Shown here in pieces: positions 8,442 through 48,863 of a stretch of 64,000 nucleotides of DNA. This DNA is from a virus. The stretch lies in the IMG/VR virus record IMGVR_UViG_3300046477_000550; one strand, written 5' to 3'. Under the pieces are notes generated by a model. That model was not told the origin of the DNA. It did not search any database and saw nothing but the letters and a program-made list of their open reading frames with translations. The position numbers and the translations under genes were made by a program. How positions within the stretch are numbered: the stretch's first letter is position 1; every line of letters begins with the position of its first letter.

Positions 8442-8722
8442 TGCGTCTCCGTTGGGTCTCACGAGACACAACGTAGACCCAAAGATGCAGCGAATGCAAG
8501 GTGTTGAGCTGGGTTCGTTGGGTGTTCGTCTGGATTCGTTGGGTGTCGCGTGACGTCTAGAGCGCAAAGCCGTGGCCAGAGATGCACGCAGTGCGCCGGA
8601 GCGCGAACGGGGCGCAAGCGCAATAAGGCGCTAACGAGGCAACAAAAAAGCCCCCCAAAGACCGATCAATCCTGGTCAATTAGGGGATTCAGTGGGTGCG
8701 TGTTGCCTAGCCGTGGTGCATC
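8442..8722. promoter_or_regulatory. cro/cI divergent intergenic switch region
   Basis: 281-nt gap between divergent HTH genes. It holds an AT-richer stretch, tandem operator-like repeats and a GTCTC-N2-GAGAC inverted repeat near 8455-8470. Confidence 0.7.
8511..8548 (+). repeat. two tandem operator-like repeats (core TTCGTTGGGTGT, 21-nt phasing)
   Basis: gggTTCGTTGGGTGTtcg at 8511-8528 and tggaTTCGTTGGGTGTcg at 8531-8548. Confidence 0.75.
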
Positions 8723-9277
8723 ATGGCCGTCATGACGAGGGATCTGAGCAAGCTCCAGTGGGGCCGGCTCGCAGACGCCATCCGGACGGCACGCGAAGCT
8801 CGCGGCCTCACGCAGCCCCAACTGGCCGAGCGCGCCGACGTCAGCGAAGGCAGTGTTCAGAACCTCGAAAGCGGCAAGCCGCGCAGCCGCATGCCCCAGA
8901 CGCTCTCGAAGATCGAGCCGCACATCGGGTGGGCGGAAGGGTCCGGCCGCCTGGTCCTCGACGGCGGCGACCCCGTCCCCGTCTCGGACGCGCCCGCCGA
9001 CAGTCACGCCGACACGGACGCGGACAGGCTGCGGCGCAAGTACTCACTGCGGATCGTCGACGAGCTGGTGTCCGATGATCCCCTGGTCGACTCCGCCGTC
9101 ATTCAGCTGCCCGGCGCCAACGGGGCCCGCATGACCGTCGTCGTGCACGGCAGCCGCGACGCCACGCCGCAGGAGATCCAGGACGCGCTGCTCGCCTGGC
9201 GCCGCACCGAGGAAGGCCTGCGCCGCCTCCCCGACGACGACGACAACGGCGACCCCCAAGCTGCCAACGGTTCGTAA
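8723..9277 (+). CDS. CI-like repressor (XRE HTH N-terminus plus C-terminal domain)
   Basis: Motif LADAIRTAREARGLTQPQLAERADVSEGSVQNLESG. Sits between cro and int. Confidence 0.75.
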   Translation: MAVMTRDLSKLQWGRLADAIRTAREARGLTQPQLAERADVSEGSVQNLESGKPRSRMPQTLSKIEPHIGWAEGSGRLVLDGGDPVPVSDAPADSHADTDADRLRRKYSLRIVDELVSDDPLVDSAVIQLPGANGARMTVVVHGSRDATPQEIQDALLAWRRTEEGLRRLPDDDDNGDPQAANGS

Positions 9278-9662: not shown

Positions 9663-10964
9663 ATGGCGCACGCGGAGAAGCGCACCTACGACAAGCGTGC
9701 ACGAAAGTGGCGCTGGCGCGGAAGGTACAAGAAGCCCGACGGCAGCTGGGGCTCCGTCTCCCGCGACGACAACAAGCAGCCGTTCTACACGGAGAAGGCC
9801 GCCGAGGACTTCGCCGCCGGCCTCGAAACCGACGTGCGCCGCAAGGTGTACCTCGACCCGAAGGACGGCCGCATCACGGTCGGCGAGTGGTCGGAGTTGT
9901 GGATCGAGTCGGTGGAGCTGGCCAACCGCAGCGACAAGACGTACCGGCAGCGCCTGCGGTCCGTGATCCTCCCCAGGTGGGAGGCGACCGCGATGGCCGA
10001 CGTGTCCGAAGTCGTCGTGAAGATCTGGGAGCAGCAGCTGCGTAAGCGGTACAAGCCCCGCTATGTCAAGTCGGTCATGTCGGTGATGCGGGTCATGTTC
10101 GACGACGCCGTCGCCTCGAAGGTCCGCGCCGACAACCCGGTCCCCACGCTGAAGGCGCGCCGTCGCGGCAAGTACAAGGGCAAGCCGAAGAAGGACGAAA
10201 CCGTCCTCGCGACCCCGCGCCAGGCCTTGCTGCTGGCCCGCAATGCCCGGGAGATGCGCGGCGTCGTCGGCTACGGCCTCGTCCTCACGATCGCCTACTG
10301 CGGGCTGCGCATATCGGAGGCGGCCGGCCTGCGCCGGGAACATCTGGTCCTCGAAGACCACGGGCAGGGCTTCCGGCTGCTGGTGGAGGAGCAGCACCAG
10401 TACGTCGACGGCAAGCCCGCCCAGGTCGATCCGAAGTACGGGAGTTCGGGCAGCATCATCCTGCCGCCGTTCCTCGCCGAGCTGCTGCGCGAGGTGCTGG
10501 CCTCGCACAAGTCGCCCTGGGTGTTTCCGTCGGCCAACGGCAAGAAGATGTCGACGTCTGCCTACTTCTACTCGGACATCTGGCGCCGCTGGGTGGATGG
10601 CCACACGGCCACACCCGACAAGCTCGGCCGCCCGGCGCGGCTCCCGGACATGAAAGCGGTCGCCGGGATCGAGGACATGGTGCCCCACGGGCTGCGCCAC
10701 AGCATGAAGACGTGGCTCGACGAGCTGAAGCACCCGCGGGTTGCGGTCGAGGAGCGGATGCGGCACGTTATCCCTGGAGTTGAGGGGACCTACAGCCACA
10801 CGACGCTGCCGATGGAGCTGGATATCGCGGCGGATCTGCAGAAGCTGTGGGAGGCCTCGGCGGGAGTGAAGGACCACCACCGGGAGTGGGAGGAGCCTCG
10901 CCCGCGGCGCTCGGAGCGCGGACCGAAAGTGGATCTCCCAGAAATCTCCCAGGACGAAGAATGA
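9663..10964 (+). CDS. int: tyrosine integrase
   Basis: 433 aa with the catalytic signature GLRISEA...HGLRHSMKTWL...GTYSH. Its 3' end faces a non-coding, palindrome-rich region. Confidence 0.9.
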   Translation: MAHAEKRTYDKRARKWRWRGRYKKPDGSWGSVSRDDNKQPFYTEKAAEDFAAGLETDVRRKVYLDPKDGRITVGEWSELWIESVELANRSDKTYRQRLRSVILPRWEATAMADVSEVVVKIWEQQLRKRYKPRYVKSVMSVMRVMFDDAVASKVRADNPVPTLKARRRGKYKGKPKKDETVLATPRQALLLARNAREMRGVVGYGLVLTIAYCGLRISEAAGLRREHLVLEDHGQGFRLLVEEQHQYVDGKPAQVDPKYGSSGSIILPPFLAELLREVLASHKSPWVFPSANGKKMSTSAYFYSDIWRRWVDGHTATPDKLGRPARLPDMKAVAGIEDMVPHGLRHSMKTWLDELKHPRVAVEERMRHVIPGVEGTYSHTTLPMELDIAADLQKLWEASAGVKDHHREWEEPRPRRSERGPKVDLPEISQDEE

Positions 10965-11164
10965 AGATCACGCAGGCGGGTTCAGGATCATCGCTCTACG
11001 CGTGTCCTGCTGCATGGAAAAGGGGGCCGCGCGACCTTGCGCAGACCCCCGTACCGCCCGCCTGAGACGATCCCCCGCGTCGCCCCAGACCCTTCGTTGA
11101 GTGCTCCTTACCTGCGACGATTCAGCGTCTCGCCAGTACAGCACCGGAACGCACTCGCGTTCGA

Positions 11165-11182
11165 CTGGATTCGTTGGGTGTC
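11165..11182 (+). repeat. third copy of the operator-like 18-mer CTGGATTCGTTGGGTGTC
   Basis: Identical to 8530-8547. Confidence 0.8.
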
Positions 11183-16010: not shown

Positions 16011-17027
16011 CTACAGCCCGATGTCCTCGCTGGCGGCGTCGGTCCACTTGTCGGCTTCGCGGATGTATCCCCAGAAGGCGGGGCTGTTCTCGGCGTGCCC
16101 GGACTGGGCGCGGATCTTCTCTTCGCGTTTCCCGGCTTTGCGGCTGGTGGTGATGAATCCGGCGCGCATCGAGTGGCCGGTCAGCCGGACGGCGACGCCT
16201 GCGCGCTCGGCGTTGCGGGCGATGATTTCGCGGACGGCTTCGGGGGACAGGGCGCGGTCGCCCATGTGCCCCCAGACGTCGATGGGGAGGAAGGCGGGTC
16301 CGGCTGTGATGGCTGCGGCGGCGCGCCAGTTGAGCCATGCGCGGACGGGGCAGGTGTCGACGTTCTTGCCGTAGCTGACGACGACGTCTCGGGGTGGCCG
16401 TCCTTTCACGGCGGGTACGTGCACGTCGAGGCCCTGGCTGACGTGGACGATGGATTCGGCGCGGAGTTCGGCGACTTCGGCGGAGCGTCCGGCGATGCCG
16501 AAGGCCATGAGCCAGAGGGCTCGGTCGCGGAGTCCGGTGAGTCCGTCGGCGACGGTGTTGTTCATTTGCCGGAGTTGTTCGGGGGTGACGGCGGCGGCTT
16601 TGCCGCGTCCGCGCGCCATGCGTTCGGGGTCGTTCTTCAGCGGCTTGAGTGCTTGCCGGGCGGCGACGGTGGCCGCCTTGGGGACTTCAACGCCGAGCCC
16701 GCGCGCGGTGACGGTAACGCCGGTGATCCTCCGGTCGATGGATGTGGGTGCGGCGAGTTTGATGGTGTCGAGCCAGACGACGAAGCCGACGAGGTTGCCT
16801 CTGGTGACTGCGGTCGACGGCATGCGGTGGCCGGTGCGTTCGGCGAGCCAGTCGTGGAACTCTTCCCAGAGGCCCCAGTCGTTGGCGTAGCCGCGCTTCG
16901 TGTTGTGGGGGCGGATGGCGTCGAGGTGCTTGTCGGCTGCCTCTTCCATCGCGGCGAGGACGGCGAGCGTCGCAGCGTCGTAGACGGCCGGGGTGGCGTC
17001 CGGCTGGTGCGGAACGAGGTCGGTCAC
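16011..17027 (-). CDS. second tyrosine recombinase (Xer/integrase-like)
   Basis: 338 aa with motifs AGRSAEV...LTGHSMRAGF...FWGYIRE. GTG overlaps the upstream stop (GTGA). Confidence 0.85.
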   Translation of the reverse strand: MTDLVPHQPDATPAVYDAATLAVLAAMEEAADKHLDAIRPHNTKRGYANDWGLWEEFHDWLAERTGHRMPSTAVTRGNLVGFVVWLDTIKLAAPTSIDRRITGVTVTARGLGVEVPKAATVAARQALKPLKNDPERMARGRGKAAAVTPEQLRQMNNTVADGLTGLRDRALWLMAFGIAGRSAEVAELRAESIVHVSQGLDVHVPAVKGRPPRDVVVSYGKNVDTCPVRAWLNWRAAAAITAGPAFLPIDVWGHMGDRALSPEAVREIIARNAERAGVAVRLTGHSMRAGFITTSRKAGKREEKIRAQSGHAENSPAFWGYIREADKWTDAASEDIGL

Positions 17028-18157
17028 GGCCGCCCCGTCCCAGCGGCTGCGACCATCTGCCGCAGCCCGGCCACGACCGCAGCAGCGCGCTCCCGGTACA
17101 CGGGCTCGGTGTCGCTCTCCCGCAACGGCACAAGCCATCCCGGGTGATCGTGGGCGTACAGGTCCTCGGCGATCCGCTCCCGGAACGTGGCGAGATCGGG
17201 GCGACTGTCAGGCGGCGGCCACGGAAGCGGGCCACTGAACATGGCGGCGAGCTTCTCGTACAGGGTGGGGCCGTCAAGGTCGGGCAGCGGTGCACCCTCG
17301 GCGATCGGCGCGAGTACGTCCAGGTGCACCCGCGCTTCCGCCTCGTCGTGTGCTGCCTGTGCCTCTACGGCCAGGTCGTCCAGGTACTCGGCGGCCCTCT
17401 CCACGTCGTGATTGCCGCCCATGGAATGGATCTGCTGGGCGCACCAGCGGATGATGCCGGGACGGTCCGGGACAGGCGTCGTGTCGACCTGGGCGCGGGT
17501 GGAGAGGTCATGCAGGTAGTCGGCGGCGTCCTGTACCGCCGGGTCGTCGTCGACGGACCGCACTCGGTCGGCGCACCAGCGGATGACCGCCGAATGGTCG
17601 GTGCACTCTTGGGCGAGGGTCGCGGCGGCTCGCCCCTCTGATCGAAGGGATCGGATCTCGGCAACGAGCGCCGGAACCGCCGCCCGGGCGGCAGTAATGA
17701 ACTCGGCGTCCTCCCTCTGCCAGATGCGCCCGATGGACTCCTCTCGGACGTCGACCACTTCGGCAGGCTGGCCCTGCCTCCAGAGCCGCCAGGGCCCAGG
17801 CGTTGCGGCGCGGGCGACCGCCTCGTATTCACTTAGTTGCTGATCGGTGACGGCGCCATTTGCCGTCAGACGCACAACGACCTCACGCAGGCGAGCGCTC
17901 TCGGTCTCGGCCCGGTCGCCGCGCTCCTGCCACGCGAACCGCTCGGCAGCCATCTCTTGTCGCTGAGCGATGGACCGCCGGGTGACCTCGTTGGCCTCGT
18001 CGACCTCAACGTCGGCTACGGCCATCACGGCATCGATCAGGTCGGTCGGGCAGATGCCGCCTGTTACGGCATCCATGGCTGCGGCGTATCGCTTGCGGCG
18101 CCCTGCGGCGCTCATTCCGGGGGGCGTCTCTGCGTTCCTCAACGGGTTCTGGGCCAT
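17024..18157 (-). CDS. hypothetical protein with PGPW motif and an internal duplicated segment
   Basis: 377 aa. The duplicated pair is VIRWCADRVRS...AADYLHDLSTRAQ and IIRWCAQQIHS...AAEYLDDLAVEAQ. Translationally coupled to the recombinase. Confidence 0.75.
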   Translation of the reverse strand: MAQNPLRNAETPPGMSAAGRRKRYAAAMDAVTGGICPTDLIDAVMAVADVEVDEANEVTRRSIAQRQEMAAERFAWQERGDRAETESARLREVVVRLTANGAVTDQQLSEYEAVARAATPGPWRLWRQGQPAEVVDVREESIGRIWQREDAEFITAARAAVPALVAEIRSLRSEGRAAATLAQECTDHSAVIRWCADRVRSVDDDPAVQDAADYLHDLSTRAQVDTTPVPDRPGIIRWCAQQIHSMGGNHDVERAAEYLDDLAVEAQAAHDEAEARVHLDVLAPIAEGAPLPDLDGPTLYEKLAAMFSGPLPWPPPDSRPDLATFRERIAEDLYAHDHPGWLVPLRESDTEPVYRERAAAVVAGLRQMVAAAGTGRP

Positions 18158-18250
18158 GGCTAATTGTACCAATTTTTCGCCCGCGATACCGCATGTTATC
18201 GAGAGCTGTCACCGAGCCCGGCCACCCCAACCCTCATGCAGACTTGCGGC

Positions 18251-18412
18251 ATGACGACGTGTCGAACCTGCCGCCAGGACTACGACGAGACGGACGAGGT
18301 GGCCGTGAAGCGCCACACGGAGCCCATCGACTGCGGGCAGTCGTGCCGCTGCAACGGGAGGCCGGGCTGCTACTTCTGCGCGGGCTCGTTCTGCGTGTGC
18401 ATCTCGCACTGA
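18251..18412 (+). CDS. 53-aa cysteine-rich small protein
   Basis: MTTCRTCRQDYDETDEVAVKRHTEPIDCGQSCRCNGRPGCYFCAGSFCVCISH. Very high GC3. Convergent with rsr. Confidence 0.6.
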   Translation: MTTCRTCRQDYDETDEVAVKRHTEPIDCGQSCRCNGRPGCYFCAGSFCVCISH

Positions 18413-18431
18413 TGGGCCCAGGACGCAGCGA

Positions 18432-18459
18432 AGCCCCGTCCTCCGGAGAGGGCGGGGCT
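18432..18459. terminator. bidirectional hairpin between convergent genes
   Basis: AGCCCCGTCCTC-cgga-GAGGGCGGGGCT, 12 bp with one G-U pair. Confidence 0.55.
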
Positions 18460-18473
18460 GCTTCACGTTCGGG

Positions 18474-20147
18474 TCAGGCGGCGCGGTTCTCCCACGGCCA
18501 GGCAGCGTCACGGGACGCTTCGAGCAAGGGGATCATCCGGAAGGCGGCGTCGGTGAGCCCGCCGAACGTGTGCCGCTGTCCGTGACCGGATGGCGCATGC
18601 CCGGCCTGGTACCCGGCGAGATTCCAGGTGTAGAGCGGCGTCGTCTGCGGGATGGACTGGTCGACTTCGGCGTGGTCGTGCCCGGCCTGCTCGTCGGTGA
18701 CGATGACGACGCGGTCGTGGCCGTGGAACTCCTGCCGGAGTGCAGCCGCCGTGTCGGTGCCGCCGCCGAGGAACCAGCCGCCGTCCTTCCACTTCTTCAC
18801 GTCGCTGAGGAGCGATCCGCCGCGGGTGAGCGGGAACGCCTTCGTCTTCGCGCCCGGAGCGTCGTTCACGTAGTAGCGGGCGCTGGAGAAGGACACGACG
18901 TCGGCCGTGGCGCAGCGTCGGCCGAGGGCGATCCCGAACAGGGCCGCGGCGTCCCAGCGCATCAGTGACCCGTCCTTGGAGAACGCGTCGTCCATCGAGC
19001 TGGACGTGTCCACCAGGATCAGCGTCCGGCCGCCGAGCTGCGGAATGTTGGCGAGTGACGCGGTCAGCGCCTTCTCCAGTGCGTGACCCCACCGCAGGGA
19101 CGGCGCCGCGTTGAACGCGGAGTAGAACCGCATCGGCAACTGCCGGGACTTCGCGACCTGCTCCGGGTCAGCGAGCATCGACACGACCTGTGCCGCGACC
19201 TTGTCGGAAACTCCAGCCTCGTCGAAGTTGCGCAGGTTCCGCAGCCGGGCCATGAACGGCATCGACGGGATGACCGCCTCCCACGCGGCCTTGTCCATCG
19301 GGCCCTGGAGCCAGCCGGCCACTGCTTCCCAGGTCATCTCCGCCATCGCCAGACGTCCGGGCGCGTCCAGCAGGATGCGGCGCCGGTCGGCCACGGGGTG
19401 CGCCATCAGGTTCGCCCGCCACCGGATTGTCATCAGCGACTCGGAGATCTCTCCGTTGCGGCCGTGGCGGCGGTCGATCGCATGCCGGAACAGGTCGCCC
19501 TGCCACGCCTTGCCCGTAGCCGGGGCCGCATGCACGAGTTCGAGGACGTCGCCGAAGCGGTAGCCCTTGGTCGCGGTGTCGTATTTCAGCAACGACCGCT
19601 CCGAGTAGAGCCGCTGGACGGCGTCGGCGATGCCGCGCTTCACCGGCTTGGGCAGCTTGCGGCCGTAGCGGGACGTCCAGTAGCCGAGCAACTCCCCCGG
19701 CTCGTCAGGACGCTGGAGGACGACGTCGATGACGCGACGGTTCCAACCGCCGTTCGTGGACGCGTCGGCCGCAGTCTCGCGGTTCCATCCCGCAGGGTCC
19801 GCTCCCTTGTCGCCTTCGAGCCGCGCCTTCACGAACTCGGCCGCACCGACGATCGCCGCAGTCCGCATGTTCCCTTCGCCGCGCAGCCAGCCGAGCAGGC
19901 CGACCGTCCACTCGGGGTCTTCGACGGCGAGCTGCCGGACGAGCTGGGTGAAGCGGTCGTCGCGGTCGCCGCCCTTCTCGTAGAACGCGTCCTGGCCAAC
20001 GAAGTTGGAGACGGCGAGCAGGAACAGCTCGGAGCGCGCGTCCCGGAGATGCCCGGTGGCGCCCTGGTGGGTGAGGGTCCGCTCCCCGGTGGTGGTCACG
20101 GGCGAGTGGGCGGCGGGTCGGGTCGAGCGCGTGTTGAAGCGCGACAT
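18474..20147 (-). CDS. rsr: Ro60 orthologue Rsr (TROVE domain plus vWA/MIDAS)
   Basis: 557 aa. TROVE-like N-terminal two thirds, then a vWA domain with the MIDAS motif LILVDTSSSMDD. Start taken as ATG 20147 after GAGGGG. Flanked by Y-RNA-like elements. Confidence 0.85.
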   Translation of the reverse strand: MSRFNTRSTRPAAHSPVTTTGERTLTHQGATGHLRDARSELFLLAVSNFVGQDAFYEKGGDRDDRFTQLVRQLAVEDPEWTVGLLGWLRGEGNMRTAAIVGAAEFVKARLEGDKGADPAGWNRETAADASTNGGWNRRVIDVVLQRPDEPGELLGYWTSRYGRKLPKPVKRGIADAVQRLYSERSLLKYDTATKGYRFGDVLELVHAAPATGKAWQGDLFRHAIDRRHGRNGEISESLMTIRWRANLMAHPVADRRRILLDAPGRLAMAEMTWEAVAGWLQGPMDKAAWEAVIPSMPFMARLRNLRNFDEAGVSDKVAAQVVSMLADPEQVAKSRQLPMRFYSAFNAAPSLRWGHALEKALTASLANIPQLGGRTLILVDTSSSMDDAFSKDGSLMRWDAAALFGIALGRRCATADVVSFSSARYYVNDAPGAKTKAFPLTRGGSLLSDVKKWKDGGWFLGGGTDTAAALRQEFHGHDRVVIVTDEQAGHDHAEVDQSIPQTTPLYTWNLAGYQAGHAPSGHGQRHTFGGLTDAAFRMIPLLEASRDAAWPWENRAA

Positions 20148-20183
20148 GAAAAAGCCCCTCACGTGGAGGGGAGGTCCAGCAGT

Positions 20184-20327
20184 GGGTGCCCGAGATCAAG
20201 GTCGGCTGCGGAGACGAAGCGCTCTGGGCCGCTGAGCTACGGAAGCCGTCAGGCTCCCGACGGGATTCGAACCCGCGTCTCTCTCTTAGCAGGAGAAGTA
20301 TCCGCCGCCTGCGCACCGGGCACCCCC
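20184..20327 (-). ncRNA. YrlA-like Y RNA with a circularly permuted tRNA-like module
   Basis: Minus strand shows a terminal helix GGGTGCCCG/CGGGCACCC and a T-arm GCGGGTTCGAATCCCGT (20260-20276). A closed acceptor stem GGGAGCC-TGAC-GGCTTCC lies at 20241-20258 and a D-arm GCTCAGCGGCCCAGAGC at 20221-20237. Ends are approximate. Confidence 0.75.
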
Positions 20328-20333
20328 GATGCT

Positions 20334-20409
20334 GTGCCTCCCGAGATCAAAGACGGGACCGGTATCACTTTTCCAAAGAAGTAACCGGACCCTGCGCACC
20401 GGGAGGTGC
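20334..20409 (-). ncRNA. second, small Y-RNA-like hairpin (YrlB-like)
   Basis: Terminal helix CCTCCCG/CGGGAGG. Shares the motifs CCCGGTGCGCAGG (5' side) and TTGATCTCGGG (3' side) with the larger RNA. Ends are approximate. Confidence 0.55.
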
Positions 20410-20425
20410 ATGAAGTTGTGGCCCC

Positions 20426-20456
20426 ACTCTACTCAGCAAACCGTGTTGCTTGTCCA
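20426..20456 (-). promoter_or_regulatory. candidate promoter for the Y RNAs (TGGACA-N19-TAGAGT)
   Basis: Lower-GC patch immediately upstream of the small Y RNA. The spacer is longer than optimal. Confidence 0.25.
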
Positions 20457-20653
20457 GCAAGTTCCGCGACACCGGCCGCAGACGCGACGAAGCGCCCTCC
20501 ACCGCCCGGAGGCGGCGGAGGGCGCAGTCGTGCCGGTCAGAGGCAGACGAGTACGACGAGGTGCAGGAACAGATGCAGCACGGGGTCACCCCCTTCCAGC
20601 CGGGGCGGACAGGGCAACCGGCATGGAGGGGCAGCCGGTGGCGCGGGGGCCCG

Positions 20654-20866
20654 TCAGTCGTCCTCCTCATACGGCGGCAGGTCGGGCGACAGGAACGGGC
20701 TGATGCTGGGCGCCGGGACCGGCTGCGGGTCGAGGCGCCCCGCACGCTCCAGCGACCCGGCATCGGCCGCCGTGTCGTCGCGGCGCGGCTGGCGCGGGGC
20801 CGGTTCAACGGTGGGCGCCGCGGCGGCGGACCGCCCGGTGACGGCCACGGGTACTGCTCGGGGCAT
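20654..20866 (-). CDS. hypothetical 70-aa protein with acidic C-terminus
   Basis: AGGAGG RBS then ATG, high GC3. Overlaps the 3' end of the collagen-like gene. Confidence 0.55.
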   Translation of the reverse strand: MPRAVPVAVTGRSAAAAPTVEPAPRQPRRDDTAADAGSLERAGRLDPQPVPAPSISPFLSPDLPPYEEDD

Positions 20867-21536
20867 CGATCCTCCTGCGGGCGAGCGCGGCACTGAGCAC
20901 CAGCACTGCGGCTTCCGGGTTCGACGGGCTGGGTGTGGGGCTCGCCGGAGCGGGCGTGCACGTGTAGTGGGTGGAGCCGTCCGAGTCGGGCGTGCACGTG
21001 TAGGTGACGCCCGCCCCGTCCGTGTACGTCCAGCCGGACGGTGCCGGGCCGGTCGCGCCGGTGTCGCCCTTCTCGCCGCGGTCGCCCTGCGGGCCGACAG
21101 GTCCGGCCACGCCTGCCTCGCCCTGAGGTCCGGCGACCGTCGAGTCCGCCCCCGGCGGACCGGTCGGGCCAGCCACTGTCGAGTCGGCGCCCGGCTTCCC
21201 CGGGGACCCGGACGCGCCAGATGTGCCCGGCTTCGGCGTGATGGTGGGCGCCGGCTTACCCGACGCCCCCGTATCGCCCTGCGGTCCGCGCGGCCCGACG
21301 ACCGATGCGCCTGCCTCGCCGCGCGACCCGGGCGGTCCGGCGACCGGCTTATGCCCGAGGGACTGCACCTGCCGGGCGAGCGCGTCGCGGGCCTGGTTGG
21401 AGACCCGCAGGTCGTCGGAGAGGCCTTGCATCCAGATCGCCATGGTGGCGAAGGAGCCGACCGCGACGACTGTGACCGCCGCATACCGCAGATCGGCCTT
21501 GCGGCGTTCCTTCGCCGGGGATGCGTGTTCGCTCAC
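20805..21536 (-). CDS. membrane-anchored collagen-like (G-X-Y repeat) protein
   Basis: N-terminal TM segment (AAVTVVAVGSFATMAIW), then GPPGSRGEAG...GPQGDRGEKGDTGATGP repeats and a duplicated ADSTVAGP unit. Confidence 0.7.
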   Translation of the reverse strand: MSEHASPAKERRKADLRYAAVTVVAVGSFATMAIWMQGLSDDLRVSNQARDALARQVQSLGHKPVAGPPGSRGEAGASVVGPRGPQGDTGASGKPAPTITPKPGTSGASGSPGKPGADSTVAGPTGPPGADSTVAGPQGEAGVAGPVGPQGDRGEKGDTGATGPAPSGWTYTDGAGVTYTCTPDSDGSTHYTCTPAPASPTPSPSNPEAAVLVLSAALARRRIDAPSSTRGRHRAVRRRGAHR

Positions 21537-21880
21537 GAACCGGCCCCCCGCGACGAGAGGTACACCTGCAACAGCACGATGAGCACGGGCACGATCAGCG
21601 CGGAGAAGACGAGGCGTTTGTCGGCGCGCCGCTCATCTTCCCGCTTCCGGCGTTCCAGTTCGGCGTCCCGCTTCTCCGATGCCCGCTCGGCCTCGATCGC
21701 CGCCACCCTCTCGATGAGCGCGCGATGTACCGCGTCGGCGGCCCGCCGTTCCAGCTCGTACCGTTCGACGGACACCTTGGCGTCGAGCCGTTTGGCGACC
21801 TCCCGGAAGTCCTCTTTGAGGTCCAGGCGCATGGCCTCGATGCGGTGGGCGAGCTCGCCGTTCGTCGGATCGGTGGGCAC
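21533..21880 (-). CDS. lysis-cassette coiled-coil protein with C-terminal TM anchor
   Basis: 115 aa with a charged helical region, then LVFSALIVPVLIVLLQVYL. Confidence 0.65.
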   Translation of the reverse strand: MPTDPTNGELAHRIEAMRLDLKEDFREVAKRLDAKVSVERYELERRAADAVHRALIERVAAIEAERASEKRDAELERRKREDERRADKRLVFSALIVPVLIVLLQVYLSSRGAGS

Positions 21881-21897: not shown

Positions 21898-22272
21898 TCA
21901 GACGACGTCCTGTACGGGCCGGTTGGCCCGCGGCACGACGGCCGGGCTCGCCGGGGATACCTGGCCGCGGGTGATGAACATCAGGACGGCGAGGACCAGG
22001 CCGTTGATGGCTGCGGTCGTCGTGGGTGCGACGTTGTACCCAAACGCGGCCACGGCGGAGGCGATGGTGGCGACGAGGGTGGTGAAGGCTTGCACGGCGA
22101 TCGGCCGGGTCACCGCAGCGGCGATCGCGCCGAGGATCGCGGAGACACCGGCGACGGTCCAGCCCGCTTCGTTCTGGGTGAGGCCGACGTTGAACGTGAC
22201 GACGAGGCCGAGGATGGCGCTGAGGGAGTTCAGTGCCAGCGCGGGCTCTCGCCCGAAGATCAGGATCTTCAT
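21898..22272 (-). CDS. holin (multi-TM small membrane protein)
   Basis: 124 aa with about 4 hydrophobic segments, directly downstream of the endolysin. Confidence 0.7.
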   Translation of the reverse strand: MKILIFGREPALALNSLSAILGLVVTFNVGLTQNEAGWTVAGVSAILGAIAAAVTRPIAVQAFTTLVATIASAVAAFGYNVAPTTTAAINGLVLAVLMFITRGQVSPASPAVVPRANRPVQDVV

Positions 22273-22290: not shown

Positions 22291-23115
22291 TCAGGCGACG
22301 ACGGTGAAGCCGTGTCTCGCCGCGAGCTTGCTGAGGGACGTCTGGCCGGGGATGCCGTCGGCCGAGCTGCCGCTGTAGGAGCCGCCCGCCTTGGAGCGCT
22401 GCCATGCCTTGTAGGCGGTGACGGTGAGGCTGCCGAAGCTGCCGTCGACGTACTGCTGGTCGAGGAGGCCTTCGGCGTGCAAGGCCTTCTCGACGAGGAG
22501 GGTCTCCGCCCGGTAGGTGGCGTGGCCCTGCGCGGCCGACGGGTCCTTCTTCGCCGCGGCCACCACGTGGGCGACGCTGACCTTCGGCTTGGCGGCGGGC
22601 TTGGGGGTGGGCGTGATGCCGAGGATCGCCTTGGCGCGCGCGATGATCGCAGGTCGCTGCGCCTTGATCGCGTCGCCGGGGCATCCGGTGTGGCCGCCCC
22701 AGGCTGCGCCGCCCATGCCGTGCCAGCCGAGGCCCTTGCCGTTGGGGTCGTCGATCGACTGGAGCGGCACCGCGTACTCGGTGTGCAGCCACGCGAGCAG
22801 GTGCGCGGCGTTCTCGACCTGGGAGGCGGTGAGAGCGGCCGGAACGAACCCTTCGTTCTCGATCGACACCCAGTGACTGTTGCCGTCAGCCTCTGCCCAG
22901 GCTCGATCCTTGGTGTCGACGAGCTGGCGCAGGCCGCCGGTCTTCGGGTTGAGGAAGTGGCTGGACGCCTGCGACTTGGGGTTCTTGAACCAGGCCTCCG
23001 ATCCGGCTTCGGTGCCCTGCTGGATGTGAAGGAGGAGGCCACGGACCTCGACCATGCCGTCGACGCGCTTGTTCGGGGTGGGGCCAATGAAGGTGGCCCC
23101 GGGCATGAGCGCCAT
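22291..23115 (-). CDS. endolysin: N-acetylmuramoyl-L-alanine amidase (PGRP/Amidase_2) plus PG_binding_1 domain
   Basis: Motifs GNSHWVSIENEG, GHTGCPG and a C-terminal LVEKALHAEGLLDQQYVDGSFGSLTVTAYKAWQ. Start ATG 23115 after GGAG. Confidence 0.85.
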   Translation of the reverse strand: MALMPGATFIGPTPNKRVDGMVEVRGLLLHIQQGTEAGSEAWFKNPKSQASSHFLNPKTGGLRQLVDTKDRAWAEADGNSHWVSIENEGFVPAALTASQVENAAHLLAWLHTEYAVPLQSIDDPNGKGLGWHGMGGAAWGGHTGCPGDAIKAQRPAIIARAKAILGITPTPKPAAKPKVSVAHVVAAAKKDPSAAQGHATYRAETLLVEKALHAEGLLDQQYVDGSFGSLTVTAYKAWQRSKAGGSYSGSSADGIPGQTSLSKLAARHGFTVVA

Positions 23116-23117
23116 GG

Positions 23118-24065
23118 TCAGGCTCCGTTCGCGTTGTTGCTGGGCGCCCACGGCCGCATCAGATCCGCCAACTCCTGGGCAGCAACAGCCGCCTCAGCCA
23201 GTCGAGGATTCGGAGCAGGAGTGGGCGCGGGAGGAGGGGTCGGCACCGGGACGGGCTGGGGCTGCGGCACGGGGTTGGCGGCGCCGGTCAGCGCCGCGAA
23301 GTCCGTGCCGAGGGTGTACAGGTCGAATCCGGAGATGTCCTTGCCGGACTTCGGGTCGATCATGTCGGGGGTGACGATGACCCAGCCCTCGTCGAAGTAC
23401 TTCCGGAAGAACGCCCAGGTCAGCTTCTGGACGGCACCCCAGGTGACGCACTCCAGTTCGGTCTCGTCGTAGGCGCCGACGGTGACGCAGTGGCCGTCCC
23501 TCGGTGCGGGCGCGCCCTTGACGACGTCCCACCGCTGCCCGTTGTTGAACTGGCTCATCGCGTAGTCGGGGAAGTTGAACCCGCAGTAGATCTGCCCGAA
23601 CAGGGTGATGGCCTGCTTGACCTGGGTCTGGTTGGACAGGTCGACCTTGGCGAAGGCGACGATCTTCTCGCCGAGGAAACCGTGCTTGCGCCAGTAGTCG
23701 AGGACGTCCTGACAGACCGCGCCCTGGTCGGTGTTCGGGTCGGTGGGGTCGTATCCGGTGATCGCCGTGTAGAAGGCGAGCGCCTGGGCGGTGTCGACCT
23801 TCAGGACGGTGCCCTGATTGACGTACACGTCGCCGATCCGCTTGTGAGCCACACCCGCACAGGTGCAGTCGCCGGCAACATCGTTCCCAAGCATCCCCCA
23901 GGCGCTGGCGGGAACCGGGTTGAGCCAGTCCGCCGAGGCGGGCGGGGCGGGCAGTGCGACGGCGTAGTTGCCGAACGCGAGGTGCAGCCGGGCAGGTTCG
24001 GCCGGACGCCGACCGCCCCGGAAGATGATGGTCAAGGGTGGCTCCGAGAGGGCGCGTTGGGGCAT
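23118..24065 (-). CDS. putative papain-like cysteine peptidase (second lysin)
   Basis: GNDVAGDCTCAGVAH nucleophile-like motif with a downstream DGHCVTVGAYD, and a Pro-rich C-terminal linker. Start uncertain. Confidence 0.55.
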   Translation of the reverse strand: MPQRALSEPPLTIIFRGGRRPAEPARLHLAFGNYAVALPAPPASADWLNPVPASAWGMLGNDVAGDCTCAGVAHKRIGDVYVNQGTVLKVDTAQALAFYTAITGYDPTDPNTDQGAVCQDVLDYWRKHGFLGEKIVAFAKVDLSNQTQVKQAITLFGQIYCGFNFPDYAMSQFNNGQRWDVVKGAPAPRDGHCVTVGAYDETELECVTWGAVQKLTWAFFRKYFDEGWVIVTPDMIDPKSGKDISGFDLYTLGTDFAALTGAANPVPQPQPVPVPTPPPAPTPAPNPRLAEAAVAAQELADLMRPWAPSNNANGA

Positions 24066-28429: not shown

Positions 28430-31400
28430 TCAGCGCTTGTAGGCGGCGTATGTCGTGGAGTTGCGCATGCCGAGCTTGAGCATCGACGACTCGACGACGT
28501 CCCGCAGATTTCGTTCCGTCATGACGTGGCCCTCGACAGTGAGGTGGAGGTGGTTGTGGACCACCGCTCCGCCCCCGCCGCCCGCCACGGCGAGGCCGGC
28601 ACCCCCGAACCCTCCTTCCCCCACCACGGAACTCGCCAGCCGGCCGATGGCCCGCGTGGCGTGCTCGGCGCCGCTGTCGACCCCCTTGGCGAGGCCTTGC
28701 GGGATCCAGGTTCCGATCTCCGCGAATACGGTGCTGGGGGACTTGATGCCGAGGGCCTTCTTGATGGCCTTCTCCATAGATTTGGCGATCTTCATCATCT
28801 GCTTCTCGATCGCCTTCTCCTGCGACTGCAAGCCCTTGACGAGACCCTGGGCGGCCTTGATTCCGGCCCCATACATACTGTCCGCAACGGCCTTCCCTGC
28901 ACTGGTGGCAGCAGACTTGGTGGTGTTGTTCAGGCTGTTGATCTGCTTGATCTGGGACGCCGACGCGTTCTGGAGCGCCGCCGCGGTGGCCCCGCCCTGG
29001 TCCACGCCGGCCGCCGCGATCTGTGCGATCAGATCGGAGGACAGCCCCTTCTTCTTCAGAGCCTGCAACTCGGCCGCGAACTGCACGGCCTTGGCCATCT
29101 GGTCGCGCATTTTGTTGACGACGTCCTGCGCGGTCAGCGCGAAGCCTTCCTGGGGGGCGTCGGTGACGATGGAGAAGCCCTGCATGACGCCGTCGGCAAC
29201 CGACTTGACCTCGTCGGACCATTCCTTCTGGAGGGTGGCCAGCCTGGTCTGCGCCGACTTCAGCTTCGCGGCGACACTGTCCCTCTTGGCCGCGAGGCCG
29301 CGCAGGATCTTGTCTTCCTTGTGGGCGTAGCTCTCAAGGCGCTTGATGGCCTTCTCGTGAGAAGCCACCCACTTGTTGGAGACGCCCTTGTGGCCCTTCT
29401 GGTCGGCGACCTTGTTGTAGGTCTGGATGAGCAGCGACTCGATGCGCCGCGTTGCGGCCTTCACCTTCGCCATCGACCCGGTGAGGCCGTCGACGAGGCC
29501 CTCGTTGATGTAGATGCCGAGGCTGCGGAACACTTTCGACGGAGAGCTGATACCCATGGCGCTCTTGAAGGCACTGACTGCGCCGTGCGCGATGTTGGAC
29601 AGCACTGACGACACGGAGACCGATTTGATGCCGCTTATCAGACCTTCGATCAGGGCCCGTCCCGCGCTGGTCAGCAGGTTGGCGAAACTGGAGCCCACAT
29701 GCCGGAGCAGCGAGACCGTGTCGCTCATCTGCTGGCCGACCAGCTTCTTCAGGTCGCCCCAGACCCGGGACCACTTGCCGGTGATCAGATCGAGAACCAG
29801 GCCGATCGTGTTCAGCACCAGGTGCATCGCGGTCGTCGTGATGCCGGAGATGAGCGCCCAGGCCGTTTTCACGGTGGCCCCGACGACGCGCCACGTCGAC
29901 TTCCAGGACGACGCCAGGATCGACAGCATCGGCCGCATGACGTTCGTCCACCAGGTTTTCGCGATCAGCCCGACGGCTCCGAAGGCGACCTTGGCGATCG
30001 TTTCGATCTGCGCGCCGTGGACCTTCCACCAGGCGGTCAGGTCCGCGATCCGGGCCTTCACCCACGCGATCACGTTCGTGTTGAACCAGTGGACGAGCGT
30101 CTGTACGCCCTTGACCATCGAGTTCCAGGCGCCGACGAAGGTCTGCTTGTGCGCGGTGAACCATGTCACCAGTGCTTGGAAGCCCCGCTTGATGAGCGGG
30201 AGCACGCTGGTCACGAACCAGCGGACGACTGTTGCTGTGGCCTGCCAAGCCACCTTGAAGACGGTGCCCAGAACGCGGGCGAGATCGTTGACGATCCGGC
30301 GGAACGTTGCGAAGTGGTTGTAGGCGTATACGAGGGCCGCGCCCACGGCCATGATTCCGGCCGCGATCAGCAACTCCGGCCCCAGGGCCGCGTACAGGGC
30401 ACCCCCGAGGGCGATGACCGCTGCGACCAGGGTGGTGCCCAGCGCGCCCGCGAGGGCCATCACGGCACCCTTGTGCTGCGACAGCCAGGTCACCCCGGTG
30501 CGGATCCAGCCGAGGAACGTCTGCACATAGGGCAGCAGCATCGTGCCGAGGCGGATGCCCATGTTGACCAGGGCGGCCTCGGTCTGCTGCAGCTGAGTGC
30601 GGAACGTCTTCTGCGTCTTCGCCCACGATGCGTCGAACGCTGATTCCTTCGACGCCTTCTGGATGTCCCCGAACTTGGTCTTCAGACCGTCCAGGTTCTG
30701 CATCAGCGACATGATCGCCTTGTCGCTGCGGCCACCGCCGAAGATCTTCGCCAGGACCGAATCCGCCTCCGTGCCGCTGACCCCGGCCTTCTCCAGCGAC
30801 GTCTTCAGATCGGTGAGCGCCACGTAGAGGCCGTCAGGCTTCTTCAAGTCCATGGCCAGCCGGTTCTGCGTGATCCCGGCCTTTTCCATCGCCGACTGCA
30901 TCGCCGCGCTCGACGCATGCACATCCGTCGATGCCACACCGAGCGCCGTCAGCATTTTCGTGGCCTTCTGCGACGGCGTGGTCATCATCGAGATGCCCAT
31001 CGTCAACCGCGTCGCCGCAACCTCCGCGCTGTTGCCGCGGTCCGTCAGGTAGGCGAGGCCGGAACCCATCGAGTTGACGGAGATCCCCATCTGCGCGGCC
31101 GTCGGCGCCCAGTTCTTGATGGACTCGTTGAAGTCCTGGAAACGCATGTCGCCCTGGCCGACGATGGCATTCAGGCTGGCCATCGTCTGCTTCGCCGACG
31201 TCGCCGGGAAGTTGAACGCCTTCATCACGCTGGATAGCGAGTAGGTGGTGTCCTCCAGCGACGCGCCGGAGATCTTCGCCTCCTTCGCGGACTCCGTCAC
31301 CACCGCCAGCGCCGACTTCAAGTCCAGGCCGGCGGAGATCGGGTGGTAGAGGGCCTCGGCCATCTGCGTGCCCGTGAAGCCGACCTGGGTGCCGAGCTTC

Positions 31401-31705
31401 AGCACCTGCTCGTTGAGCTGAGAGGAGGTCAGCCCAACCTTCTTCAGCTGGTCGTTCGTCAGCCCGGCCGCCGTCTGGAGGCGGGTCATGTGCTCCTGGA
31501 AGTTGGCGGCGGCCTTCACCGATGCGACGCCGATCGCGATCGTTGCCGCACCGGCGATCATGCCGAACCCGGCGAGTTTCTTGAACGCGCCGCCCATACG
31601 GGAGGTGGCGGCCTCGCCCTCGGCGGCGGCCCCCTTCATGCCCGCCTTGAAGGGGGCAGTCACCGCGCGGAGGACTACGTAGAGGTCTCCGACTTCACTG
31701 CCCAT
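28430..31705 (-). CDS. tail tape measure protein
   Basis: 1091 aa with a helical Ala/Lys/Gly-rich sequence and a central multi-TM-like stretch. Sits after the G/GT genes. Confidence 0.9.
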   Translation of the reverse strand: MGSEVGDLYVVLRAVTAPFKAGMKGAAAEGEAATSRMGGAFKKLAGFGMIAGAATIAIGVASVKAAANFQEHMTRLQTAAGLTNDQLKKVGLTSSQLNEQVLKLGTQVGFTGTQMAEALYHPISAGLDLKSALAVVTESAKEAKISGASLEDTTYSLSSVMKAFNFPATSAKQTMASLNAIVGQGDMRFQDFNESIKNWAPTAAQMGISVNSMGSGLAYLTDRGNSAEVAATRLTMGISMMTTPSQKATKMLTALGVASTDVHASSAAMQSAMEKAGITQNRLAMDLKKPDGLYVALTDLKTSLEKAGVSGTEADSVLAKIFGGGRSDKAIMSLMQNLDGLKTKFGDIQKASKESAFDASWAKTQKTFRTQLQQTEAALVNMGIRLGTMLLPYVQTFLGWIRTGVTWLSQHKGAVMALAGALGTTLVAAVIALGGALYAALGPELLIAAGIMAVGAALVYAYNHFATFRRIVNDLARVLGTVFKVAWQATATVVRWFVTSVLPLIKRGFQALVTWFTAHKQTFVGAWNSMVKGVQTLVHWFNTNVIAWVKARIADLTAWWKVHGAQIETIAKVAFGAVGLIAKTWWTNVMRPMLSILASSWKSTWRVVGATVKTAWALISGITTTAMHLVLNTIGLVLDLITGKWSRVWGDLKKLVGQQMSDTVSLLRHVGSSFANLLTSAGRALIEGLISGIKSVSVSSVLSNIAHGAVSAFKSAMGISSPSKVFRSLGIYINEGLVDGLTGSMAKVKAATRRIESLLIQTYNKVADQKGHKGVSNKWVASHEKAIKRLESYAHKEDKILRGLAAKRDSVAAKLKSAQTRLATLQKEWSDEVKSVADGVMQGFSIVTDAPQEGFALTAQDVVNKMRDQMAKAVQFAAELQALKKKGLSSDLIAQIAAAGVDQGGATAAALQNASASQIKQINSLNNTTKSAATSAGKAVADSMYGAGIKAAQGLVKGLQSQEKAIEKQMMKIAKSMEKAIKKALGIKSPSTVFAEIGTWIPQGLAKGVDSGAEHATRAIGRLASSVVGEGGFGGAGLAVAGGGGGAVVHNHLHLTVEGHVMTERNLRDVVESSMLKLGMRNSTTYAAYKR

Positions 31706-48635: not shown

Positions 48636-48650
48636 GGTCACCGCCCGTCG

Positions 48651-48859: not shown

Positions 48860-48863
48860 TACG

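What the first reader, a model, noticed from the sequence alone, without database searches (positions are those of the whole stretch)
18474..20456. Ro60 (Rsr) gene with two tandem Y-RNA-like ncRNAs carried as a phage accessory module after the lysis cassette
The sequence shows a 557-aa TROVE plus vWA (MIDAS DTSSS) protein. About 35 nt upstream on the same strand sits a roughly 144-nt element with a 9-bp terminal helix (GGGTGCCCG/CGGGCACCC).

Its interior is a tRNA in permuted order: T-arm GCGGG-TTCGAAT-CCCGT, an acceptor stem closed by a tetraloop (GGGAGCC-TGAC-GGCTTCC), then D-arm GCTC-AGCGGCCCA-GAGC.

A second roughly 76-nt hairpin lies immediately upstream. It shares both flanking motifs, CCCGGTGCGCAGG and TTGATCTCGGG, which are presumably the two strands of a Ro-binding helix.

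A 6-bp hairpin plus U5 (20149-20171) abuts the rsr ATG, and its 3' arm is also the RBS. This suggests coupling of Y RNA termination with rsr translation.

Bacterial Rsr with YrlA-type tRNA-mimicking Y RNAs is established knowledge (Wolin laboratory work). The context here, at the end of a late operon in a Streptomyces-like temperate phage, would probably be missed by standard annotation.
Basis: partly seen in the sequence, partly recalled or inferred. Interest (0 to 1): 0.75.

Follow-up and report, generated by a model that had tools for sequence, protein, structure and literature searches.

The report
Phage Ro60 gene with Y RNAs
A temperate Streptomyces-type phage carries a self-contained cassette with a Ro60 (Rsr) RNA-binding protein and two small Y RNAs, one mimicking a tRNA; this is real and well conserved, but such phage cassettes have been described before.

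Summary
Window 18474-20147(-) encodes a 557-aa Ro60/Rsr protein: a TROVE domain plus a vWA domain with an intact DxSxS MIDAS motif. Directly upstream on the same strand lie a 70-nt short Y RNA (20337-20406) and a 142-nt YrlA-type Y RNA (20184-20325). The interior of the longer RNA is a permuted tRNA: T arm, closed 7+1-bp acceptor stem, D arm.

Both RNA structures are supported by covariation across more than 100 related loci in Streptomyces genomes and viral contigs. The cassette sits between the lysis genes and an integrase. It is not simply the tail of the late operon: a very strong hairpin and a conserved promoter-like element precede it, and another hairpin follows rsr.

This kind of system is already known. 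Chen et al. 2014 reported YrlA-like RNAs next to Ro60 in 254 bacteria and 22 phages. Hu et al. 2025 solved a phage Ro60 that binds two upstream Y-like RNAs and host PNPase.

New here:
- the temperate Streptomyces prophage setting;
- the tRNA-less short partner RNA;
- a conserved hairpin that sequesters the rsr ribosome-binding site;
- Rfam and ARAGORN miss these RNAs or call them tRNAs.

Verdict: new member of a known kind.

The parts
20492..20525 (-). Strong G+C hairpin (15 bp, tetraloop) followed by CUUCG. It is the likely intrinsic terminator of the upstream lysis/late genes.
   Evidence: The fold gives -43 kcal/mol, z = -7.45, with 0 of 200 shuffles as good. Relatives carry different but equally palindromic sequences at the same position.
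20426..20456 (-). Promoter-like element: TGGACA (20456-20451), a 19-nt spacer, then TAGAGT (20431-20426). The palindrome TTGCTGGACAAGCAA (20446-20460) overlaps the -35. The predicted transcript start is near 20419.
   Evidence: T(G/A)GAC(A/G), exactly 19 nt, TAnnnT, then CACAAC occurs at the same distance (278-314 nt before the rsr start) in the window and 12 related loci. The generic sigma-70 scan, which allows 16-18 nt spacers, found nothing. The palindrome is unique in the window. This rests on pattern only, with no expression data.
20337..20406 (-). Short Y RNA with no tRNA-like domain. It has a terminal helix CCUCCCG/CGGGAGG, a Ro-binding-type region GGUGCGCAGG / UUGAUCU, an inner helix, and a hairpin carrying the conserved UACUUC motif.
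   Evidence: R1 scores it at 49.5 bits, E 1.1e-9. It is near-invariant in 73 Streptomyces and viral loci. With distant phage copies added, 93.4% of cells pair, 9 of 17 pairs show compensatory change, and slid controls reach at most 57%. MFE z = -2.7.
20184..20325 (-). YrlA-type Y RNA. It has a terminal helix plus a Ro-binding-type region, helix P2, a variable 'V' region (register unresolved), and a permuted tRNA-like core: T arm 20260-20276, closed acceptor-like stem 20240-20259, D arm 20221-20237.
   Evidence: On a MAFFT alignment of 25 sequences, 93.8% of cells pair, 25 of 39 pairs show compensatory change, 0 of 500 shuffles reach this, and slid controls give 40-51%. On 111 distinct sequences, 93.7% pair and 28 of 39 pairs are compensatory. 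Rfam YrlA gives a sub-threshold hit of 25.7 bits, E 0.0024.
20148..20171 (-). Hairpin CCCCUC-CACGU-GAGGGG followed by CUUUUUC, directly before the rsr ATG. The 3' arm GAGGGG is the Shine-Dalgarno sequence, 7 nt from the ATG.
   Evidence: It is the only terminator-like site in 18200-21600. It folds at -11.3 kcal/mol. The stem is invariant and the loop variable in 27 phage-lineage loci. At least 25 chromosomal loci have a different hairpin (CCUCCGAA..UUCGGGGG) that also holds the SD but has no U run.
18474..20147 (-). rsr: Ro60 orthologue, 557 aa, TROVE/HEAT ring plus a vWA domain with MIDAS DTSSS.
18427..18462 (-). Hairpin after the rsr stop codon. It is the likely terminator, shared with a convergent small Cys-rich ORF (18164-18412 +).
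   Evidence: The fold gives -28.9 kcal/mol, z = -2.7. The ORF is listed.

Best explanation
This is a phage-borne Ro60-Y RNA ribonucleoprotein cassette.

**Transcription (inferred).** One transcript is predicted to start near 20419. It would carry a short Y RNA, then a YrlA-type tRNA-mimicking Y RNA, then rsr.

**Processing and binding (inferred from M. smegmatis).** The two RNAs would be cut out of the precursor, and each would be bound by Rsr through the conserved helix formed by its 5' and 3' ends (GGUGCGCAGG opposite UUGAUCU).

**Function (inferred from D. radiodurans, S. Typhimurium and Thermus phage phiLo).** The Y RNAs would gate the Rsr ring and tether it to host polynucleotide phosphorylase. 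This would redirect or dampen host RNA decay.

**The tRNA-like core.** It has a 7-bp acceptor stem. It is therefore a candidate substrate for RNase P, the CCA-adding enzyme and tRNA-modifying enzymes.

**The hairpin at the rsr start.** It holds the ribosome-binding site in its 3' arm. It probably limits rsr translation, marks the end of the Y RNA precursor, or both.

**Shown here:** the identity of the protein, the conserved structures of both RNAs, gene order, and the recurrence of the cassette in a lineage of temperate Streptomyces phages.

**Not shown:** expression, RNA processing, Rsr binding, PNPase recruitment, and what the phage gains.
For: **Protein identity.**

**RNA structures.** Covariation in both RNAs.

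**Conserved architecture.** The order short RNA, tRNA-like RNA, rsr on one strand is the commonest arrangement among 108 loci scanned: 44 's T' and 15 'T s T'.

**Recurrence in phages.** The cassette lies between lysis genes and an integrase in several viral contigs. Their integrases are 86-91% identical to the window's in L085, L086, L088, L089 and L093.

**Precedents.**
- M. smegmatis YrlA and YrlB lie upstream of rsr, come from one precursor and are Rsr-bound. YrlA has a 7-bp acceptor stem that RNase P cleaves and that receives CCA (PMC4201824).
- YrlA-like RNAs lie next to Ro60 in 22 bacteriophages.
- Thermus phage phiLo Ro60 binds two upstream Y-like RNAs and host PNPase, and attenuates PNPase (PMC12135203). 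It is the closest solved relative of this protein.
Against: - No expression or binding data exist for this cassette.
- The Rfam YrlA model does not reach its gathering score (25.7 against 69 bits).
- The window's 5'-strand motif is CGCA rather than the CGAA of the published GNCGAA motif, although relatives vary between CGAA, CGCA, CGCG and CGAU.
- The 'V' region has no supported pairing register: helix 3 is 77-79% paired with no compensatory change.
- The short RNA is so conserved among close relatives that only 3 pairs covary there.
- The direction of the effect on PNPase is unknown. It is stimulated towards structured RNA in D. radiodurans and attenuated in phiLo.
Confidence: 0.8

Rival explanations
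1. The two structured elements are only a cis-acting 5' leader of the rsr mRNA (an attenuator or translational control region). They are not stable trans-acting Y RNAs.
For: They lie in the same predicted transcription unit as rsr. They end in a terminator-like hairpin that also sequesters the ribosome-binding site.
Against: - The same elements occur as arrays of two to four copies, some more than 1.5 kb from rsr and interleaved with tRNA genes, in other phage contigs (L098, L103, L104).
- Each copy has its own closing helix with the Ro-binding-type motifs.
- The homologous M. smegmatis RNAs are stable and Rsr-bound.
Confidence: 0.07
2. The long element is a real tRNA or tRNA pseudogene, or a tRNA fragment that marks the phage attachment site.
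For: ARAGORN calls a tRNA-Ser(GCU) at 20251-20324. GenBank records of related phages annotate the equivalent element as tRNA-Arg (VanLee) or tRNA-Thr (prophiGD43A-5). An integrase lies about 1.3 kb beyond the rsr stop.
Against: - The Rfam tRNA model does not reach threshold here, although it finds the two real tRNAs at 48.6-48.9 kb.
- The covarying structure has the order T arm, closed acceptor stem, D arm, with no anticodon loop.
- The same element sits upstream of rsr in non-prophage chromosomal loci flanked by PhoX, GntR and TerD genes.
Confidence: 0.02
3. This is a rival about purpose. The cassette is a lysogenic-conversion 'moron', expressed from the prophage to improve host survival of RNA-damaging stress. 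It would not be a lytic-cycle or counter-defence function.
For: It lies at the prophage end next to the integrase. Hairpins bound it and it has its own conserved promoter-like element. Bacterial Rsr aids survival after UV in D. radiodurans (background cited in PMC4201824).
Against: - A palindrome overlaps the -35, and other phages carry different palindromes over the same promoter. The promoter may therefore be repressed rather than constitutive.
- Most Streptomyces loci retrieved already carry a chromosomal Y RNA-rsr cassette.
- The two phage Ro60 proteins studied so far point to lytic-cycle roles: PNPase attenuation and countering the Ppl defence system in phage Bas63.
Confidence: 0.35

Closest known systems
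Mycobacterium smegmatis YrlA/YrlB-rsr locus (Chen et al. 2014, PMC4201824)
   Same: - Actinobacterial.
- Two Y RNAs lie upstream of rsr on the same strand, made from one precursor.
- YrlA has T, acceptor-like and D arms in the same permuted order.
[quoted passage not shown]
- It is not under RtcR control.
   Different: - The order is reversed here: the short RNA comes first and the tRNA-like RNA lies next to rsr.
- The short RNA here has no T arm, whereas M. smegmatis YrlB has one.
- Both strands of the Ro-binding helix are strongly conserved here.
- The cassette is carried by a temperate phage.
Thermus phage phiLo Ro60 with Yrl1 and Yrl2 (Hu et al. 2025, PMC12135203; PDB 9KOP, 9L5Y)
   Same: - A phage-encoded Ro60 with two Y-like RNAs in the upstream non-coding region.
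- It is the closest solved relative of this protein (profile E 1.2e-52).
- It gives the only biochemical model for a phage Ro60: it binds both RNAs and host PNPase.
   Different: - The protein is only distantly related in sequence (phmmer E 6.5e-21).
- The terms YrlA and tRNA-like do not occur in that paper's text, so no tRNA-like domain is described for Yrl1 or Yrl2.
- Its host is a thermophile.
- The genomic setting next to lysis genes and an integrase is not described there.
Ro-like RNA binding proteins of sequenced actinobacteriophages: mycobacteriophage clusters C and L2, Streptomyces phages BRock/GiJojo/Alone3, Gordonia phages VanLee and BearBQ
   Same: - Homologous protein, 37-48% identity.
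- R1 finds Y RNAs directly upstream in VanLee, BearBQ and prophiGD43A-5.
- BearBQ is a 55-kb phage with Ro close to a tyrosine integrase.
   Different: - None is closer than 48% identity, and no DNA-level relative of the phage exists in that collection.
- Most are large phages of 75-200 kb.
- Their Y RNAs are unannotated or annotated as tRNAs.
Salmonella Typhimurium rsr-yrlBA-rtcBA operon and D. radiodurans Rsr/Yrn1/PNPase (RYPER)
   Same: Same protein family. YrlA has the same kind of tRNA-like domain. These systems supply the mechanistic model of a Y RNA tethering Ro60 to PNPase.
   Different: - In Salmonella the Y RNAs lie downstream of rsr, and the operon depends on sigma-54/RtcR and includes RtcB and RtcA.
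- No rtc genes lie next to the window's cassette.

Membership tests
Ro60 / Rsr proteins | TROVE (HEAT-repeat ring) domain | tested here: met
   Pfam TROVE scores 54.3 bits against a cut-off of 23, though only residues 285-347 align. The profile of 20 homologues matches phiLo Ro60 (1.2e-52), Xenopus Ro60 (6.7e-13), human RO60 (9e-13) and D. radiodurans Rsr (1e-8) over about 320 residues.
Ro60 / Rsr proteins | C-terminal vWA domain with MIDAS motif DxSxS...T...D | tested here: met
   D380-T-S382-S-S384, T464 and D485 are invariant in alignment A4. Pfam VWA_2 is only sub-threshold: 17 bits against a cut-off of 27.
Ro60 / Rsr proteins | Doughnut-shaped fold that binds Y RNA on its outer surface | not tested
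   No structure prediction was run. RNA binding is not testable with these tools.
YrlA-type Y RNAs (Chen et al. 2014) | Encoded within 4 kb of the Ro60 gene on the same strand | tested here: met
   The 3' end lies 36 nt from the rsr ATG on the same strand. The same holds in more than 100 loci.
YrlA-type Y RNAs (Chen et al. 2014) | tRNA-like domain: T arm with a GGUUCGAAUCC-type loop, a closed acceptor-like stem, and a D arm, in that order | tested here: met
   The T arm is 100% paired, the acceptor-like stem 91-94% paired with 7 of 8 pairs compensatory, and the D arm 95-98% paired with 3 of 4 pairs compensatory.
YrlA-type Y RNAs (Chen et al. 2014) | Helix formed by the 5' and 3' ends, carrying the GNCGAAN0-1G (CGAA) motif in the 5' strand | tested here: inconclusive
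   The helix is present and covaries: 8 of 12 pairs in helix 1. The motif is GUGCGCAGG in the window and GUGCGAAGG in many relatives. This is close to the published pattern but not an exact match.
Rfam RF02553 (YrlA) | Score at or above the family's gathering threshold (69 bits) | tested here: not met
   The score is 25.7 bits, E 0.0024, in a 461-nt search, and nothing reaches gathering. The model also finds none of the Y RNAs in 10 related loci. I therefore file the RNA as YrlA-type by architecture and by homology with actinobacterial YrlA, not as a member of the Rfam family as currently modelled.
YrlA-type Y RNAs (Chen et al. 2014) | Bound by Rsr; carries tRNA-type modifications; substrate of RNase P or the CCA-adding enzyme | not testable with these tools
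   This needs co-immunoprecipitation, modification mapping and RNase P assays. The 7-bp acceptor stem (G1-C72 to G7-C66, 20241-20247 with 20253-20259) is the only sequence-level pointer.
Phage 'moron' (autonomous accessory transcription unit) | Own promoter and terminator, inserted between conserved phage modules | tested here: inconclusive
   Flanking hairpins and a promoter-like element conserved in 13 loci fit. The neighbouring cargo varies among relatives: the 382-aa ORF had no match in any locus. There are no transcription data.

The most novel reading that the evidence does not exclude
The cassette is an autonomously regulated unit that a lineage of temperate Streptomyces phages keeps at the prophage end. 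It uses a tRNA-mimicking Y RNA and a minimal tRNA-less Y RNA to capture host PNPase or tRNA-processing enzymes. This would serve either as lysogenic conversion or as counter-defence.

The hairpin at the rsr start would set the ratio of Y RNA to Rsr. The orphan tRNA-like core in the phage's tRNA cluster (48779-48859) would be a third, Ro-independent member of the same mimicry system.
Probability: 0.2. Interest if true: 0.55.

Novelty: new member of a known kind. Interest (0 to 1): 0.3.

Why it matters
It adds a well-defined family of Ro60-Y RNA cassettes in temperate Streptomyces phages and chromosomes to a system whose function in bacteria and phages is still unclear.

It also gives a covariation-supported structure for two RNA types: a tRNA mimic and a minimal partner.

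On the practical side, the current Rfam YrlA model misses this whole actinobacterial and actinophage clade. tRNA finders and some GenBank records label these RNAs as tRNAs. Phage 'tRNA' counts in actinophages are therefore slightly inflated and their Y RNAs under-reported.

Because the host genus is genetically tractable, such a prophage would be a reasonable system for asking what a phage gains from Ro60.

Tried and rejected
- **Rfam at gathering thresholds** found only two real tRNAs in the window and no YrlA in 10 related loci.
- **Single-sequence MFE folding** does not recover the tRNA-like core of the long element and is not significant (z = -1.1).
- **Generic promoter scan** found nothing. 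The conserved element has a 19-nt spacer, outside the scan's range.
- **Megablast** of the 23.6-kb structural and lysis region against sequenced phages gave no match.
- **NCBIfam and PADLOC** gave nothing for Rsr or its neighbours.
- **'V' arm pairing.** I tried a register of CUUC with GAAG for the long RNA. It is not supported: no compensatory change and 77-79% paired.
- **DNA-damage promoter.** I searched for a RecA-NDp-type motif (consensus recalled from memory). It occurs in only 4 of 107 loci and not in the window.
- **Operator test.** I asked whether the palindrome over the -35 recurs elsewhere in the window, as an operator of the phage repressor would. It does not.
- **Orphan tRNA-like core at 48779-48859.** Two pattern scans of viral contigs and one neighbour-protein search found no relatives.
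- **tRNA-Ser call.** I rejected the ARAGORN call because the Rfam tRNA model fails there and the covarying structure has no anticodon loop.
Full report
**What is in the sequence**

Read on the minus strand, the region runs in this order:
- a long G+C hairpin, 20525-20492
- a promoter-like element, TGGACA (20456-20451), 19 nt, TAGAGT (20431-20426)
- a 70-nt hairpin RNA, 20406-20337
- a 142-nt structured RNA, 20325-20184
- a 6-bp hairpin with a U run, 20171-20148
- the ATG of a 557-aa ORF, 20147-18474
- another hairpin after the stop, 18462-18427

The one correction is that the closed acceptor-like stem has 8 pairs (CGGGAGCC/GGCUUCCG), not 7. In tRNA numbering this is a full 7-bp acceptor stem plus a pair between positions 73 and -1.

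**The protein**

The ORF matches Pfam TROVE above threshold and VWA_2 below it. It matches PHROG 850 'RNA-binding protein' at 3.6e-50 over nearly its whole length.

tblastn finds 87 phage records. The best are 'Ro-like RNA binding protein' genes of Streptomyces, Gordonia and Arthrobacter phages at 37-48% identity.

A profile of the protein and 19 homologues matches these solved structures:
- Ro60 of Thermus phage phiLo (9KOP/9L5Y, 1.2e-52)
- Xenopus Ro60 (1YVP, 6.7e-13)
- human RO60 (9NEN)
- D. radiodurans Rsr (2NVO, 1e-8)

The MIDAS residues D380, S382, S384, T464 and D485 are invariant. The protein is a Ro60/Rsr orthologue.

**The long RNA**

Rfam finds nothing here at gathering thresholds. 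A permissive search gives YrlA (RF02553) at 25.7 bits against a gathering score of 69, E 0.0024. ARAGORN calls a tRNA-Ser at 20251-20324. That call uses one strand of the terminal helix as an acceptor arm, and I reject it. Single-sequence folding is uninformative (z = -1.1).

The decisive evidence is comparative. Searching with the protein returned 80 loci in Streptomyces genomes and 32 viral contigs. Nearly all carry the same motifs upstream of rsr.

I imposed the structure read from the window on a MAFFT alignment of 25 diverse copies:
- 93.8% of cells form standard pairs.
- 25 of 39 pairs show compensatory change.
- No shuffle out of 500 reaches this.
- Sliding the partners by 1-3 columns drops pairing to 40-51%.

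A covariance model built from this alignment (R1) then collected 111 distinct copies. The result is the same: 93.7% paired and 28 of 39 pairs compensatory. That alignment is fitted to the model, so it leans towards the structure.

The terminal helix, helix P2, the T arm, the acceptor-like stem and the D arm are all supported. The 'V' region between P2 and the T arm is not.

**The short RNA**

Among 73 close relatives it is almost invariant, so only 3 pairs covary. When copies from distant phage contigs are added, 9 of 17 pairs show compensatory change. These include six pairs of the terminal helix, for example CCUCCCG/CGGGAGG against CCGCUAG/CUAGCGG. In that set 93.4% of cells pair, and slid controls reach at most 57%.

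It shares three things with the long RNA: the 5' strand GGUGCGCAGG, the 3' strand UUGAUCU, and a UACUUC motif just after helix P2. It has no T or D arm. It is therefore a minimal Y RNA and differs from M. smegmatis YrlB, which has a T arm.

From memory, both strands of the shared helix resemble the Ro-binding helix of human Y1 RNA (GGUCCGAAGG and UUGACU). I did not test this resemblance.

**Context**

The window is 68.8% G+C. It comes from a 66.6-kb metagenome contig. It encodes these functions:

| Function | Coordinates |
|---|---|
| RecT and exonuclease | 390-2122 |
| Second integrase | 9663-10964 |
| Integrase | 16011-17138 |
| Holin | 21898-22272 |
| Endolysin | 22291-23151 |
| Tape measure | 28430-31705 |
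| Major head protein | 36106-37554 |
| Portal | 41406-42950 |
| Terminase | 42947-44275 |

The metagenome's gene calls leave 20148-20653 empty.

The same placement recurs in viral contigs. Holin or endolysin homologues lie 2-4 kb upstream. Integrases 86-91% identical to the window's lie downstream in L085, L086, L088, L089 and L093.

The bulk of the Streptomyces loci have Rsr at 57-60% identity. The one I examined is chromosomal and not prophage-borne: in L035 the neighbours are PhoX, a GntR regulator, a PLP enzyme and TerD. There thus appear to be two lineages of the cassette, one in phages and one chromosomal.

**Is it the end of the late operon?**

Probably not. The upstream hairpin folds at -43 kcal/mol (z = -7.45). 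Relatives have different palindromes at the same place, as expected for a terminator.

Thirteen loci, including the window, share T(G/A)GAC(A/G), exactly 19 nt, TAnnnT, then CACAAC, at 278-314 nt before the rsr start. A second hairpin follows rsr.

This is the layout of an autonomous accessory unit, but no transcription data exist. A palindrome (TTGCTGGACAAGCAA) overlaps the -35 and is unique in the window. Other phages carry GTAAC/GTTAC palindromes over the same promoter. This hints at regulation by a DNA-binding protein.

**The hairpin at the rsr start**

Its stem CCCCUC(C)/GAGGGG is invariant and its loop variable in 27 phage-lineage loci. At least 25 chromosomal loci instead have CCUCCGAA...UUCGGGGG, followed by AAUUCA rather than a U run.

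What is common to both is that the Shine-Dalgarno sequence lies in the 3' arm. That favours control of rsr translation, or a processing or stability role. Termination may be an added feature of the phage lineage.

**How it most likely works**

The model comes from precedent.
- In M. smegmatis, YrlA and YrlB lie upstream of rsr, are cut from one precursor and are bound by Rsr. YrlA, with its 7-bp acceptor stem, is cleaved by RNase P and receives CCA.
- In D. radiodurans, a Y RNA tethers Rsr to PNPase (abstract of PMC4201824).
- In Thermus phage phiLo, Ro60 binds two upstream Y-like RNAs and host PNPase and attenuates the enzyme.
- In E. coli phage Bas63, a Ro60-like protein counters the Ppl defence system.

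I therefore take the cassette to make two Rsr-Y RNA particles that engage host PNPase. Through the tRNA-like core they would also engage tRNA-processing enzymes.

Whether the cassette acts in the lysogen or during lytic growth is open.

**Comparison with what is known, and novelty**

Phage-encoded Ro60 with adjacent YrlA-like RNAs was reported in 2014 for 22 bacteriophages. It has been studied structurally and biochemically since 2025.

'Ro-like RNA binding protein' is a routine annotation in actinophages, including temperate ones. Examples are subcluster L2 mycobacteriophages and Gordonia phage BearBQ, where the gene lies about 1 kb from a tyrosine integrase.

The finding is a correct and careful identification of a new member of a known kind. 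The new points are modest:
- a temperate Streptomyces phage lineage that keeps the cassette between the lysis genes and the integrase;
- the minimal short Y RNA;
- conservation of both strands of the Ro-binding helix;
- the hairpin that sequesters the ribosome-binding site;
- an annotation gap: R1 shows that the 'tRNA-Arg' of phage VanLee and the 'tRNA-Thr' of prophiGD43A-5 lie inside Y RNAs, and that BearBQ has an unannotated one.

Noticed in passing
window 48779-48859 (-), between tRNA-Ile (48863-48937) and tRNA-Gly (48650-48722): This is a third permuted tRNA-like core: T arm GCGGG-UUCAAAU-CCCGU, a long closed acceptor-like hairpin, D arm GCUC-AGUGGCCUA-GAGC, and a 5-bp closing stem GGGGA/UCCUC. 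It has no recognisable Ro-binding helix. R1 scores it at 29.7 bits and Rfam YrlA at 22.9 bits over the core only. It lies about 28 kb from rsr. No relatives were found, so conservation could not be tested and its nature is unexplained.
   Followed up: partly
GenBank phage records: VanLee NC_073474 65454-65525; prophiGD43A-5 MW584167 26001-26079; BearBQ OR253908 near 32783-32926: Features annotated as tRNA-Arg (VanLee) and tRNA-Thr (prophiGD43A-5) lie inside full-length Y RNA matches directly upstream of Ro-like genes (113 and 60 bits). BearBQ has an unannotated Y RNA at 65 bits. ARAGORN also miscalls tRNAs on Y RNAs in L113 and L114.
   Followed up: yes
window 39857-41323 (-): This 488-aa protein lies just after the portal gene. 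Its N-terminal domain resembles LigT / 2',3'-cyclic phosphodiesterase (phrog_2659 'RNA ligase' 4.8e-18; TIGR02258 3.4e-9, below cut-off). It is fused to an SPP1 gp7/MuF-like minor head domain. It is a second RNA-end-processing function in the same phage.
   Followed up: no
window 8503-8547 and 11159-11182: A 24-bp direct repeat, GTTCG(T/A)CTGGATTCGTTGGGTGTC, occurs as two tandem copies at 8503-8547 and one copy at 11159-11182 that is 96% identical. It brackets a helix-turn-helix regulator (8723-9277 +) and a second tyrosine integrase (9663-10964 +). It may be operator sites or the ends of a small integrated element.
   Followed up: no
L005, L094, L109 (about 302-306 nt upstream of rsr) and L016 (649 nt upstream of rsr): In these loci the Y RNA-rsr cassette is preceded by TTGTCA-N3-N8-TACAGT (TACCGT in L016). 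This resembles the RecA-independent DNA-damage promoter of actinobacteria, a consensus I recalled from memory. The background rate is 0.0045 per kb. The motif is absent from the window.
   Followed up: partly
L098, L103, L104 (large viral contigs): In these phages several Y RNAs of both types are interleaved with tRNA genes in long arrays upstream of rsr. L098, for example, has four Y RNA matches and three tRNAs within 2 kb.
   Followed up: partly
window 18164-18412 (+): A small ORF converges on rsr. It ends in a cysteine-rich tail (…GCYFCAGSFCVCISH) and shares the terminator hairpin with rsr. It has no family match.
   Followed up: no
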